A stretch of 16,137 bases of DNA from a virus (lineage: Duplodnaviria > Heunggongvirae > Uroviricota > Caudoviricetes): IMG/VR virus record IMGVR_UViG_2671180543_000010, one strand, 5' to 3'. Shown piece after piece: positions 1-2,257 of the stretch (positions within the stretch are counted from its first letter, which is position 1; each line of letters opens with the position of its first letter). A program made the position numbers and the translations under genes. Under the pieces are notes generated by a model. The model was given only the letters and a program-made list of their open reading frames with translations, had not been told where the DNA came from and did not search any database.

Positions 1-1461
1 ATGAAAAAATTACTGCGTCTTTTTTTCCCGCTCTCGCTGCGGGTACGTTTTCTGTTGGCAACGGCAGCGGTAGTACTGGTGCTTTCGCTTGCCTACGGAA
101 TGGTCGCGCTGATCGGTTATAGCGTCAGTTTCGATAAAACTACGTTTCGGCTGTTACGTGGCGAGAGCAATCTGTTCTATACCCTTGCGCAGTGGGAAAA
201 CAATAAGTTGCATGTCGAGTTACCCGAAAATATCGACAAGCAAAGCCCCACCATGACGCTAATTTATGATGAGAACGGGCAGCTTTTATGGGCGCAACGT
301 GACGTGCCCTGGCTGATGAAAATGATCCAGCCTGACTGGCTGAAATCGAATGGTTTTCATGAAATTGAAGCGGATGTTAACGATACCAGCCTCTTGCTGA
401 GTGGAGATCATTCGATACAGCAACAGTTGCAGGAAGTGCGGGAAGATGATGACGACGCGGAGATGACCCACTCGGTGGCGGTAAACGTCTACCCGGCAAC
501 ATCGCGGATGCCAAAATTAACCATTGTGGTGGTGGATACCATTCCGGTGGAGCTAAAAAGTTCCTATATGGTCTGGAGCTGGTTTATCTATGTGCTCTCA
601 GCCAATCTGCTGTTAGTGATCCCGCTGCTGTGGGTCGCCGCCTGGTGGAGTTTACGCCCCATCGAAGCCCTGGCAAAAGAAGTCCGCGAACTGGAAGAAC
701 ATAACCGCGAATTGCTCAATCCAGCCACAACGCGAGAACTGACCAGTCTGGTACGAAACCTGAACCGATTGTTAAAAAGTGAACGCGAACGTTACGACAA
801 ATACCGTACGACGCTCACCGACCTGACCCATAGTCTGAAAACGCCACTGGCGGTGCTGCAAAGTACGCTGCGTTCTCTGCGTAGTGAAAAGATGAGCGTC
901 AGTGATGCTGAGCCGGTAATGCTGGAGCAAATCAGCCGCATTTCACAGCAAATTGGCTACTACCTGCATCGTGCCAGTATGCGCGGCGGGACATTGCTCA
1001 GCCGCGAGCTGCATCCGGTCGCCCCACTGCTGGACAATCTCACCTCAGCGCTGAACAAAGTGTATCAACGCAAAGGGGTCAATATCTCTCTCGATATTTC
1101 GCCAGAGATCAGCTTTGTCGGTGAGCAGAACGATTTTGTCGAGGTGATGGGCAACGTGCTGGATAATGCCTGTAAATATTGCCTCGAGTTTGTCGAAATT
1201 TCTGCAAGGCAAACCGACGAGCATCTCTATATTGTGGTCGAGGATGATGGCCCCGGTATTCCATTAAGCAAGCGAGAGGTCATTTTCGACCGTGGTCAAC
1301 GGGTTGATACTTTACGCCCTGGGCAAGGTGTAGGGCTGGCGGTAGCCCGCGAAATCACCGAGCAATATGAGGGTAAAATCGTCGCCGGAGAGAGCATGCT
1401 GGGCGGTGCGCGGATGGAGGTGATTTTTGGTCGCCAGCATTCTGCGCCGAAAGATGAATAA
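1..1461 (+). CDS. phoQ: PhoQ sensor histidine kinase of the PhoP/PhoQ two-component system (complete, 486 aa)
   Basis: Full-length ORF recognised as E. coli-type PhoQ: two N-terminal TM segments, periplasmic acidic patch [12 protein letters not shown]-box [14 protein letters not shown] boxes [23 protein letters not shown]. Stop TAA at 1459..1461. Confidence 0.97.
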
Positions 1462-1579
1462 ATATGTCCTTTTACCACTACATCAAGTCATTGATTCGAT
1501 CAAACAATTTTCATTGAAAAAGTGCCAAAAATCGCAAATTGACTACACCATTAACTACACCGTTCGGTGCACTGTATGA

Positions 1580-1604
1580 AACAACGTGGAACAAATAGAC
1601 ACAA
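1580..1604. repeat. Three AACAA half-sites at exact 10-bp spacing (1580-1584, 1590-1594, 1600-1604) containing box ACAACGTGGAACAA; preceded by direct repeat ACTACACC x2 (1542-1549, 1554-1561)
   Basis: Read directly from sequence; the same box recurs at 9143-9156 and, on the other strand, at 14816-14860. Candidate arm-type/RDF or regulator binding array near the phoQ-proximal island end. Confidence 0.5.
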
Positions 1605-1973
1605 GAAATATACAGGCGGGTAATCTTTCCAGGGGGAAGCGCACCAATTCATGAGGGGCGTTAATGTCGATATGGGGATCCCCATAACGGGGCTACCGGA
1701 TTTTTTTTCCGGTTAACCTTTAATCAGGCTGGTGGGTTTTACATACCCTTGATCACCGTAATGATGATCCAGATGTGCACCTTTTCCACCAATGGCGGAA
1801 AAGCTCCAACCGTAACGATGATCGCTATGGTTGCCTCGATGGTCTGCGTGGTCATTATGACCGTTCAGCCAGTGACCTTAATCAGAATTTTTCGCTAAAA
1901 AATGACGTTGGCCACGTCATCCGGAAAGCACAAAATCACGTCGATTTTTAATGAACGGTTAAACCGTCTTTTT

Positions 1974-2008
1974 GTCACGGTGTGTCACTGGTTGTCACTC
2001 TCCGTCAC
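1974..2008. repeat. Four GTCAC direct repeats with exact 10-bp period (ttGTCACgg tgtGTCACtg gttGTCACtc tccGTCACga)
   Basis: Direct reading; helical-phase spacing typical of a protein-binding array (integrase arm-type sites, RHH operator or packaging-site repeats). Related GTGTCAC motif sits in the 13619-13634 operator palindrome. Confidence 0.5.
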
Positions 2009-2222
2009 GATTGAGGTGGTGGTCATTCTGCCCGACCGCGCATCTTTGCGCTATCGGGAATATCAAACAGTTACCTCGCCGACTTCCTCAAATTGAGGTT
2101 TCCGAAAATATCAGAGCGGGTTAGCGATTAAGCTGACGAGTAATTAAACTGCGAAAATTTCGTAGTTTCTGAATATATTCCGGCCTGCTGGTTAACAGTC
2201 CTCAGATGTGAGGGATGTAGCC

Positions 2223-2248
2223 AGCGCAATTTTGCGCTTTGCTTTAAT
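2223..2248. terminator. Hairpin AGCGCA-ATTT-TGCGCT followed by T-rich tract on + strand; lies just 3' of the last island gene
   Basis: Inverted repeat read from sequence; T-run is on the + strand only, so function as a minus-strand terminator is uncertain. Confidence 0.3.
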
Positions 2249-2257
2249 CTCAGTGAG

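What the first reader, a model, noticed from the sequence alone, without database searches (positions are those of the whole stretch)
1540..1610. Candidate attR arm: direct repeats within 150 bp of the phoQ stop
ACTACACC x2 (1542-1561) is followed directly by the AACAA x3 array (1580-1604), about 80-140 bp downstream of phoQ. A dense cluster of short direct repeats at an island edge is what integrase arm-type and directionality-factor sites look like, so the crossover site may lie in 1462-1560. An alternative is that the repeats mark a second, tandem att copy, given the internal copy at 9141-9166.
Basis: inference. Interest (0 to 1): 0.5.

Follow-up and report, generated by a model that had tools for sequence, protein, structure and literature searches.

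The report
Recombination arm of a phage satellite island
The short repeats just after phoQ are the far-end recombination arm (attR) of a known type of phage-parasitic island: probable docking sites for its integrase and its excision and activator protein, which is expected anatomy that had not been spelled out for this island family.

Summary
The repeats are real and non-random. The window holds a capsid-forming phage-inducible chromosomal island (cf-PICI, EcCIEDL933/EcCICFT073 family) inserted between phoQ and roxA (ycfD). The crossover core is AAATATGTCC at 1460-1469, overlapping the phoQ stop codon. It is the published ycfD-phoQ PICI core GGACATATTT.

The finding lies inside a 79-bp conserved arm module (1527-1605): two 12-bp units ATTRACTACACC, an 18-bp spacer, then (G/A)AACAA repeats at 10-bp phase. 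The same cassette, in the same orientation, sits just upstream of the int start codon in sibling islands. It recurs at both ends of islands at five different att sites. A circular metagenomic contig joins the two arms across the core (attP).

Across island classes the 12-bp pair changes with the integrase N-terminal arm-binding domain. The AACAA array stays with the AlpA type. I read the pair as integrase arm-type sites (about 0.8) and the array as AlpA boxes (about 0.55).

The "internal copy" at 9131-9166 is not a second att. It has no core and no pair, and is a conserved array upstream of the capsid operon. A fourth array follows the int stop codon. This is ordinary biology, a new detail of a known kind.

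The parts
1..1461 (+). phoQ, the conserved chromosomal gene on the left flank
   Evidence: A 486-aa ORF, annotated phoQ in all matching E. coli genomes.
1460..1469 (.). att core (crossover region) AAATATGTCC, overlapping the phoQ TAA stop codon
   Evidence: The empty site reads gaataaATATGTCCatacttc. The window's left junction reads gaataaATATGTCCttttacc. Right junctions of sibling islands read gataaAATATGTCCatacttc. It is the reverse complement of the published EcCICFT073 core GGACATATTT at ycfD-phoQ.
1477..1484 (+). ACTACATC, a degenerate third copy of the pair motif 7 bp from the core; seen only in phoQ-site islands
   Evidence: It is an exact ACTACACC at the same place in L001 and ACTACATC in CFT073. 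It is absent in other att classes. Its role is unknown.
1484..1496 (-). IHF-consensus site AATCAATGACTTG (WATCAANNNNTTR) between the core and the pair
   Evidence: One of 3 matches in the window, against 0.69 expected. The TTGA-T core is invariant in the left-arm alignment. This is a consensus match only.
1527..1605 (+). Conserved 79-bp attR arm module, shared by PICIs and cf-PICIs at five att sites
   Evidence: Left-arm alignment A1. BLAST matches in other att contexts cover exactly query positions 58-136, which is window 1527-1605, at 95-97% identity. Classic PICIs diverge right after 1605.
1538..1561 (+). Two tandem 12-bp units, ATTGACTACACC and ATTAACTACACC: proposed integrase arm-type sites (P'-arm pair)
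   Evidence: The motif changes with the integrase N-terminal domain across classes.
1579..1604 (+). 10-bp-phased array AAACAAcgtgGAACAAatagACACAA: proposed AlpA (RDF/activator) boxes
   Evidence: In one search, all 62 PICI-type pairs in IMG/VR are followed by such an array.
9131..9169 (+). Internal array block GAACAACGTGGAACAACCACGAACAAATAATTTACAAAA, upstream of the capsid operon; not an att site
   Evidence: Invariant apart from one base (G/C at window 9138) in four cf-PICIs, including L008, whose surrounding sequence is strongly diverged. There is no core and no pair nearby.
9180..9197 (-). Intrinsic terminator of the upstream (replication/accessory) operon, immediately before the internal array
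14816..14861 (-). Five-copy array (TTGTTC, TTGTTC, TTGTTG, TTGTTG, TTGTAT on the + strand, 10-bp phase) between the int stop codon and alpA
   Evidence: Conserved as 4-5 phased AACAA copies with variable spacers in many islands and in EcCICFT073.
14345..14533 (-). alpA (62 aa, Phage_AlpA family)
   Evidence: Pfam PF05930, E = 5e-18.
14908..16137 (-). Tyrosine integrase (409 aa) with an N-terminal arm-DNA-binding domain. The int-proximal arm and second core lie just beyond the window end.
   Evidence: Pfam PF13356 Arm-DNA-bind_3 (residues 8-95), PF22022 and PF00589. The right arm of a 98-100% identical Shigella flexneri island is shown.

Best explanation
Positions 1470 to beyond 16137 are a capsid-forming PICI integrated at the phoQ-roxA (ycfD) att site. 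Positions 1460-1469 are the core. Positions 1470-1605 are the attR (P') arm.

Within the arm, the two ATTRACTACACC units (1538-1561) are arm-type sites for the N-terminal domain of the island's integrase. The 10-bp-phased (G/A)AACAA array (1579-1604) is a binding array for the island's AlpA protein, a winged-helix Xis/TorI-type factor. An IHF-like site (1484-1496) lies between the core and the pair.

The int-proximal arm carries the same pair, 18-19-bp spacer and array cassette in the same orientation, directly upstream of the int start codon. In the excised circle the core is therefore flanked by two cassettes.

Proposed mechanism (inferred): integrase protomers bridge arm pairs and core sites. 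AlpA, made when a helper phage induces the island, coats the phased arrays, bends the arms and tips the reaction toward excision. AlpA boxes at two further places would couple the same signal to transcription: after the int stop codon upstream of alpA, and upstream of the capsid operon.

What is shown here: the junction, the core, the cassette on both arms, its conservation, and the covariation with the proteins. What is inferred: which protein binds which repeat, and the effect on directionality and transcription.
For: Junction and core:
- All 5,426 E. coli genomes stop matching at about 1469.
- Empty-site and junction sequences define the core.
- The core equals the published one.

Island type:
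- int, alpA, D5-type primase and DUF4222.
- TerL, TerS, HNH, head-completion protein, portal, protease, capsid and PerC.

Cassette on both arms:
- L001.
- The near-identical Shigella island.
- EcCICFT073.
- Islands at the smrA, yifB, tqsA and clpS sites.

attP:
- Circular contig L206 has a 119-bp terminal overlap and reads right arm, core, left arm.

The integrase has an arm-binding domain.

Decoupling test:
- thiM class: Int N-domain 61% identical, AlpA 72% identical. The pair becomes ACTGACCACACA x2 on both arms, while the arrays stay GAACAA.
- clpS class: Int N-domain 79%, AlpA 61%. The pair stays ACTACACC.
- yejM class: both proteins about 30-37% identical. The pair is CGTATAACTAAA x2 and the array is CACCGGA, in the int arm and just upstream of alpA.

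Arrays at non-att regulatory positions.

Literature:
- AlpA activates its own promoter, and its overexpression triggers excision and replication in EcCICFT073 (PMC6092414).
- In KplE1, five sites for the RDF TorI (GTTCG/GATCG/GTCCG, in blocks) and IntS arm-type sites overlap the int promoter in attL (PMC2951348).
Against: - No binding data exist for either protein on these sequences.
- The arrays lie on both arms, whereas the five KplE1 TorI sites mapped in PMC2951348 all lie on one arm, attL, the int-proximal arm; single-arm placement of λ Xis sites is from my own knowledge.
- In the left arm the array is distal to the pair relative to the core. In the right arm it lies between the pair and the core.
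- The array between int and alpA is in the opposite orientation to the other three. It lies about 130-220 bp upstream of the predicted alpA promoters, with a hairpin in between.
- Fillol-Salom et al. saw no AlpA effect on Pint in EcCICFT073, although the right-arm array sits next to that promoter.
- In the circular form the arms and the 5' end of int are adjacent. Covariation of the pair spacer (ATTA versus AGTG) with the Int N-terminal variant could therefore be linkage alone.
- AlpA types with AACAA arrays are 61-100% identical, so the array-to-AlpA link rests mainly on one distant class (yejM) plus the positions of the arrays.
- The window's own right arm is outside the window.
Confidence: 0.75

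Rival explanations
1. The roles are swapped. The 10-bp-phased AACAA array would be the integrase arm-type site set, like lambda P'1-P'3, and the ACTACACC pair would bind AlpA or another accessory factor.
For: Tandem 10-bp-phased repeats on both arms resemble lambda P' sites (established knowledge). The arrays occur on both arms.
Against: The pair motif changes when the Int N-domain diverges (thiM class) although AlpA there is closer to the window's than in the clpS class, which keeps ACTACACC. The arrays also occur at two non-att positions next to operon starts. The pair is found only in the arms.
Confidence: 0.12
2. The cassette is mainly a transcriptional operator, for example for int autoregulation, that was duplicated at the far end of the island and has no role in recombination there.
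For: The right-arm cassette lies 27 bp upstream of the int start codon, where it must overlap Pint or the 5' UTR. This resembles KplE1, where such sites repress intS.
Against: The far-end copy is kept at near-constant distance from five different cores and is more conserved than its flanks. Four unrelated integrase types each keep their own pair on both ends. In KplE1 the same sites serve both recombination and regulation, so the two roles do not exclude each other.
Confidence: 0.08
3. The repeats mark tandem or composite elements, with a second att at 9131-9166.
For: 15 bases (AACAACGTGGAACAA) are shared between 1580-1594 and 9132-9146. A near-core string AAAATATGCC lies at 9108-9117.
Against: AAATATGTCC with at most 1 mismatch occurs only at 1460. 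There is no ACTACACC near 9131. The near-core string is not conserved in L008, while the array block is invariant apart from one base. The same internal block exists in single cf-PICIs at the yifB and tqsA sites. The gene content across 9166 is that of one EcCIEDL933-type island.
Confidence: 0.02
4. The repeats are chance low-complexity sequence with no function.
For: The motifs are short.
Against: Shuffle controls. Conservation across 886 E. coli genomes with left-arm matches and five att classes.
Confidence: 0.01

Closest known systems
EcCICFT073 (classic PICI) and EcCIEDL933 (cf-PICI) at the ycfD(roxA)-phoQ att site
   Same: Same att site and core: GGACATATTT in Table S1 of PMC6092414. Int is 97% and AlpA 95% identical to EcCICFT073. 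The pair-plus-array cassettes are the same on both arms. The packaging module is of the EcCIEDL933 type. For EcCICFT073, integration of a cloned int-attP fragment, AlpA autoactivation and AlpA-driven excision were shown experimentally.
   Different: This copy is a mosaic. The best complete E. coli islands cover 91-94% of it at 93-95% identity and sit at another att site. A Shigella flexneri island is 98-100% identical over the parts compared. Its capsid gene carries a nonsense codon. The arm sites themselves are not described in those papers.
KplE1/HK620 recombination module (IntS integrase plus TorI RDF)
   Same: The int promoter is embedded in the int-proximal att arm. Integrase arm-type sites and blocks of short RDF sites (GTTCG/GATCG/GTCCG, whose reverse complement CGAAC resembles CGAACA here) lie in that arm. 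The RDF gene is transcribed separately from int (PMC2951348).
   Different: In KplE1 all five TorI sites are in attL only. Here the arrays are on both arms and at two internal positions. The integrase and target (tRNA argW versus phoQ 3' end) differ. Whether TorI and this AlpA are homologous was not tested here.
Lambda attP (P1/P2, P'1-3 arm-type sites, Xis X1/X1.5/X2, IHF H sites)
   Same: A heterobivalent integrase with an N-terminal arm-binding domain, arm sites on both sides of a short core, phased tandem sites for a small winged-helix factor, and an IHF-like site between the core and the P' sites (established knowledge).
   Different: The integrase family differs (P4-like Arm-DNA-bind_3). 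Both arms carry the same cassette in direct orientation, and the candidate RDF sites are on both arms.
Pseudomonas aeruginosa AlpA antiterminator and its ABE
   Same: Same protein name, and a predicted winged-helix DNA-binding protein (PMC7969949). Membership of this protein in the Phage_AlpA Pfam family was not tested here. It also has a positive regulatory role.
   Different: The ABE is a single GGGACGN5GGTA element between -35 and -10. Here there are 3-5 phased AACAA repeats, and none sits inside a recognisable promoter.

Membership tests
att arm with arm-type sites of a heterobivalent tyrosine integrase | The element encodes a tyrosine integrase with a separate N-terminal arm-DNA-binding domain. 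| tested here: met
   PF13356 (E = 5e-18, residues 8-95) plus PF00589.
att arm with arm-type sites of a heterobivalent tyrosine integrase | A repeated motif, different from the core, is present on both arms flanking the core in attP. | tested here: met
   The pair lies on both arms in L001, L007, L008, L009, L299 and the Shigella sibling. A contiguous attP is seen in circular contig L206. The window's own right arm lies outside the window.
att arm with arm-type sites of a heterobivalent tyrosine integrase | The motif follows the integrase N-domain, not the core specificity or other proteins. | tested here: met
   The same pair occurs with five different cores. Different pairs occur with diverged Int N-domains in the thiM, yejM and yicC classes.
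att arm with arm-type sites of a heterobivalent tyrosine integrase | The integrase N-domain binds the sites directly, and they are required for recombination. | not testable with these tools
   Needs EMSA or footprinting and att mutagenesis.
Recombination directionality factor (Xis/TorI/AlpA-type) binding array | The element encodes a small winged-helix RDF-family protein. | tested here: met
   AlpA matches PF05930 at E = 5e-18. AlpA overexpression causes excision of EcCICFT073.
Recombination directionality factor (Xis/TorI/AlpA-type) binding array | Tandem, helically phased short direct repeats lie within an att arm. | tested here: met
   10-bp phasing at 1579-1604 and in right arms.
Recombination directionality factor (Xis/TorI/AlpA-type) binding array | The sites are confined to one arm, which gives the reaction its asymmetry. 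| tested here: not met
   Arrays occur on both arms and at two internal sites.
Recombination directionality factor (Xis/TorI/AlpA-type) binding array | The motif covaries with the RDF. | tested here: inconclusive
   AACAA-type arrays go with AlpA variants 61-100% identical. A CACCGGA array goes with the 30%-identical yejM-class protein, both in the arm and upstream of alpA. Only one distant class supports this link, and in that class Int also differs.
Capsid-forming PICI (cf-PICI) | int plus alpA plus primase/replication module plus own capsid, portal, protease, TerS/TerL and HNH; no tail or lysis genes; about 10-15 kb; a PICI att site. | tested here: met
   The size is about 14.8 kb. The att site is listed for PICIs in PMC6092414. 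No tail or lysis family appeared among the 20 ORFs scanned. Not every small ORF was scanned.
Second or tandem att site at 9131-9166 | A core copy plus arm-type pair at the internal position. | tested here: not met

The most novel reading that the evidence does not exclude
The (G/A)AACAA arrays are AlpA boxes, and one small protein does two jobs from the same site type. On both att arms it would act as the excision directionality factor. At the array after int (upstream of alpA) and the array upstream of the capsid operon it would switch on transcription. Helper-phage induction of alpA would then trigger excision, autoamplification and packaging-gene expression in one step. The 79-bp pair-plus-array cassette would be a portable arm module that has been kept while the integrase was retargeted to at least five chromosomal cores by a few changes in its core-binding domain.
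Probability: 0.45. Interest if true: 0.45.

Novelty: new member of a known kind. Interest (0 to 1): 0.3.

Why it matters
It gives a concrete, testable site map for recombination and regulation in the E. coli/Shigella PICI and cf-PICI family. The map has a core, an IHF-like site, an integrase pair and candidate AlpA boxes.

For this family, how AlpA induces the island is still described only genetically. I found no paper that reports arm-type sites or AlpA operators.

It also corrects a likely mis-assignment. The "att core" listed for EcCIDI14, and probably that for the yejM class, in Table S1 of PMC6092414 are the arm-type tandem pairs, not crossover sites.

The practical value is in engineering PICI-based delivery vehicles and in delimiting islands in genome annotation. 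The finding is useful but not surprising.

Tried and rejected
- Structured RNA: no Rfam family reaches its gathering score anywhere in the window. Folding 1527-1610 and 1462-1610 on both strands gives z-scores of 0.9, 0.5, 0.05 and -1.0. An RNA element is rejected.
- Second att at 9131-9166: rejected.
- Promoter scans around the arrays gave only weak or no sigma-70 matches, at or below shuffle expectation. No promoter claim is made. A hand-read TTGTTC-16-TATTTT at 9136-9109 is not conserved in L008 and was dropped.
- AlpA-based search of IMG/VR returned only relatives at least 89% identical, so it could not test covariation. The published PICI table supplied the divergent classes instead.
- Exact-cassette scan of species-representative genomes found only Shigella flexneri plus scattered, apparently unrelated hits, which I did not examine further. 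In IMG/VR many hits to the looser pattern are coding tandem repeats.
- No complete E. coli genome holds this exact island, so the window's own right arm could not be read. The 98-100% identical Shigella island was used in its place.
- The idea that the GTCAC repeats at 1971-2010 are the cos site was not pursued. The cf-PICI preprint does not locate cos.

Full report
**Observation**

The window starts with phoQ (1-1461, +). ACTACACC occurs only at 1542-1549 and 1554-1561, against 0.21 expected per window. The repeating unit is really 12 bp: ATTGACTACACC followed by ATTAACTACACC (1538-1561).

Eighteen bases further on lies AAACAAcgtgGAACAAatagACACAA (1579-1604), three units at exactly 10-bp spacing, the third imperfect. 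The two-unit pattern GAACAAN4GAACAA (at most 1 mismatch) has 5 matches, against 0.19 expected, and none of 200 shuffles reaches 5. The matches are at 1579 (+), 9131 and 9141 (+), and 14816 and 14826 (-). Read directly, 14816-14861 holds five TTGTT units in 10-bp phase.

**Where the island begins**

A megablast of 1300-2300 hits all 5,426 complete E. coli genomes, but almost all matches end at window 1467-1469. Only 51 genomes continue.
- An empty site (CP019051) reads ...gatgaataaATATGTCCatacttcacg... and runs into roxA 75 bp after the phoQ stop codon.
- The window reads ...gatgaataaATATGTCCttttaccac....
- The far junction of a related island (CP027449) reads ...ttgataaAATATGTCCatacttcacg... 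followed by roxA.

The shared core is AAATATGTCC, window 1460-1469, overlapping the TAA of phoQ. This is the reverse complement of GGACATATTT. That is the att core published for EcCICFT073 and EcCIRM12579 at "ycfD-phoQ" in Table S1 of Fillol-Salom et al. 2018 (PMC6092414).

**What the island is**

All genes lie on the - strand.
- A 409-aa tyrosine integrase with an N-terminal Arm-DNA-bind_3 domain (14908-16137), a 62-aa Phage_AlpA protein (14345-14533), a D5-type primase and a DUF4222 protein.
- TerL, a P27-type TerS, HNH, a head-completion protein, portal, prohead protease, a capsid protein and a PerC-like protein.

The annotated sibling island has the same order and no tail or lysis genes. 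This is a capsid-forming PICI of the EcCIEDL933 type (bioRxiv 10.1101/2022.09.08.507074). The window ends at the int start codon, so the int-proximal arm and second core lie just outside it.

**The same cassette is on the other arm**

In CP027449 the 250 bp between the int ATG and roxA read: cat, 27 nt, attaACTACACCattaACTACACC, gatcgttgcacaaagggct, ACAACgtgaAACAAgctgGAACAAg, about 80 nt, AAATATGTCC. The same holds in three other sources:
- IMG/VR loci whose integrase best matches the window's (100% in the best tblastn segment).
- A Shigella flexneri island that is 98-100% identical to the window over the parts compared.
- EcCICFT073 itself, with Int 97% and AlpA 95% identical.

Both arms therefore carry pair, 18-19-nt spacer and array, in the same orientation. 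One cassette sits 72 bp after the core (attR, in the window). The other sits about 80 bp before the core and 27 bp from the int start codon (attL).

A metagenomic viral contig of 11,098 bp has an exact 119-bp terminal overlap, which is the signature of a circular assembly. It belongs to a tqsA-site sibling and reads right arm, core, left arm without interruption. That is the attP predicted from the two junctions.

**Conservation**

A blastn of 1470-1640 finds matches in 886 of 5,426 genomes. Several cover only window 1527-1605, at 95-97% identity, next to unrelated chromosomal genes. Fetching those places shows islands at four other sites: smrA/abgR, inside yifB, inside tqsA, and clpS. Each has its own core. 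Three of the four (smrA, tqsA, clpS) match the published PICI cores; yifB is not in that table. The three islands fetched whole (smrA, yifB, tqsA) carry the ACTACACC pair plus AACAA array at both ends. For the clpS class the two ends come from different loci (left arm L006; right arm L082/L084).

The alignments show the pair and the AACAA units invariant while spacers and flanks vary. Classic PICIs diverge from cf-PICIs immediately after 1605, which delimits a 79-bp arm module (1527-1605). In IMG/VR, all 62 PICI-type pairs are followed within 70 nt by AACAA-N4-6-AACAA. The remaining hits to the pattern are unrelated coding repeats.

Between the core and the pair lies a perfect IHF consensus (1484-1496, - strand). 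Its TTGA-T core is invariant in the left-arm alignment.

**Which protein binds which repeat (inference from covariation)**

The integrases of the five classes are 77-100% identical and their AlpA proteins 61-100% identical. I therefore used more distant PICI classes from the published table.

| Class | Int N-domain identity | AlpA identity | Pair | Array |
|---|---|---|---|---|
| EcCI224 (rcnR/thiM) | 61% | 72% | ACTGACCACACA x2 on both arms | GAACAA, same 17-nt spacing |
| clpS | 79% | 61% | ACTACACC | GAACA-type |
| yejM/tRNA-Pro | 37% | 30% | CGTATAACTAAA x2 at both ends, plus two inverted copies near int | CACCGGA at 10-11-bp spacing, in the int-proximal arm and just upstream of alpA |
| yicC/dinD | very different | 28% | GTGTACAYAA on both ends | none seen |

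The two AlpA proteins of the clpS and thiM classes are 79% identical to each other. Their integrase N-domains are only 61% identical, and their pairs differ. The tandem pair therefore tracks the integrase N-domain. I assign it as the arm-type site (about 0.8).

The phased array tracks the AlpA type. Unlike the pair, it also occurs away from the att arms. The evidence for AlpA boxes (about 0.55) is as follows.
- The array position after int lies upstream of alpA. Fillol-Salom et al. showed that AlpA activates its own promoter, and that AlpA overexpression triggers excision and replication of EcCICFT073.
- KplE1 is a precedent. Blocks of short sites (GTTCG/GATCG/GTCCG) for the RDF TorI sit beside IntS arm-type sites in an attL that overlaps the int promoter (PMC2951348).

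**The internal copy**

Positions 9131-9169 lie directly after an intrinsic terminator of the upstream operon (9197-9180, - strand) and about 215 bp upstream of the capsid start codon. In an alignment of four cf-PICIs, the 39-nt block GAACAAC(G/C)TGGAACAACCACGAACAAATAATTTACAAAA is identical apart from that one base. This holds even in the yifB-site island, whose surrounding sequence is strongly diverged.

No core and no ACTACACC is nearby. The core-like AAAATATGCC at 9108-9117 is not conserved. This is a conserved regulatory array of a single island, not a second att or a tandem element.

**Caveats**

- There are no binding data.
- The arrays lie on both arms, unlike the KplE1 TorI sites, which are all in attL.
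- The array after int is inverted relative to the other three and is separated from the predicted alpA promoters by a hairpin.
- AlpA did not change Pint activity in EcCICFT073.
- The arms and the 5' end of int are neighbours in the circular form. Fine-scale covariation (spacer ATTA versus AGTG with the two Int N-terminal variants) may therefore be linkage.
- No RNA explanation fits: there are no Rfam hits and no folding signal.

**Novelty**

The island family, its att site and its core are published. I found no paper that describes arm-type sites or AlpA operators for PICIs. One published "att core" (EcCIDI14, CGGTGTAGTTAATGGTGTAGTTAATT) is in fact the reverse complement of this pair. The finding is therefore correct and useful, and is an expected feature of a known system: a new member of a known kind, of modest interest.

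Noticed in passing
window 8089-8091 (- strand; capsid gene 7759-8916): The cf-PICI major capsid gene carries an in-frame TGA where two sibling islands have TGG (Trp276). It is otherwise 98.7% identical to L001. This copy may be unable to build its own capsids, unless this is a sequencing error.
   Followed up: yes
window 1610-2257, especially 1971-2010: About 650 bp of non-coding DNA between the arm module and the last packaging-operon ORF is conserved among cf-PICIs at different att sites, up to 8 places in one genome (H5). It contains four GTCAC units at about 10-bp spacing (tttGTCACggtgtGTCACtggttGTCACtctccGTCACg). Its function is unknown. It could be a packaging or regulatory site.
   Followed up: no
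window 10380-10615: A dense set of GGTAGAC/GTCTACC-type iterons in both orientations lies just downstream of the primase gene (10623-12371, -). This is probably the island's replication origin.
   Followed up: no
window 14693-14725 (+ strand): A hairpin, AAAGGCAT-13 nt-ATGCCTTT, is followed by a T-run on the + strand, between the five-copy array and the predicted alpA promoters. It is conserved in sibling islands. It may end int transcripts (bidirectional) or a small + strand transcript. It was not called by the terminator scan because the loop exceeds 8 nt.
   Followed up: partly
integrase (window 14908-16137, -), alignment columns 119, 129, 133: phoQ-site and tqsA-site integrases are about 95% identical after residue 100. 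Only 7 alignment columns separate the two classes. Columns 119, 129 and 133, in the central core-binding region, also differ in the yifB and smrA classes. They are candidate determinants of core-site choice.
   Followed up: partly
window 1477-1484: A third, degenerate copy of the pair motif (ACTACATC; exact ACTACACC in L001) lies 7 bp from the core. It is seen only in phoQ-site islands. It could be an extra arm-type site or chance.
   Followed up: partly
PMC6092414 Table S1; loci L159, L160, L161: Several published PICI 'att site cores' are tandem repeats found at both island ends. They are probably arm-type pairs or arrays rather than crossover sites: EcCIDI14; the yejM class, TTTGTAGTTATACGTTTGTAGTTATACGG; NmCIFF6, TTTGGTAACACGTTTAGTAACAC; and PhaCIATCC43949, AACAAAATCAAACAA. 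In L159 the island abuts a tRNA-Pro gene, which is the likelier target.
   Followed up: partly
L206 (IMGVR_UViG_3300045988_152974): This 11,098-bp metagenomic contig has an exact 119-bp terminal overlap. It is a circular or concatemeric PICI genome caught with an intact attP (tqsA-type core).
   Followed up: yes
right arms, e.g. L297:7450-7510 (reverse strand): Between the AACAA triplet and the core, the int-proximal arm has a further run of 10-11-bp-phased GAACAA/GAAACA/GAAAC/AAAACA units. clpS-class islands have CGAACA x2 at the same place. These may be additional AlpA boxes or intrinsic bending.
   Followed up: no
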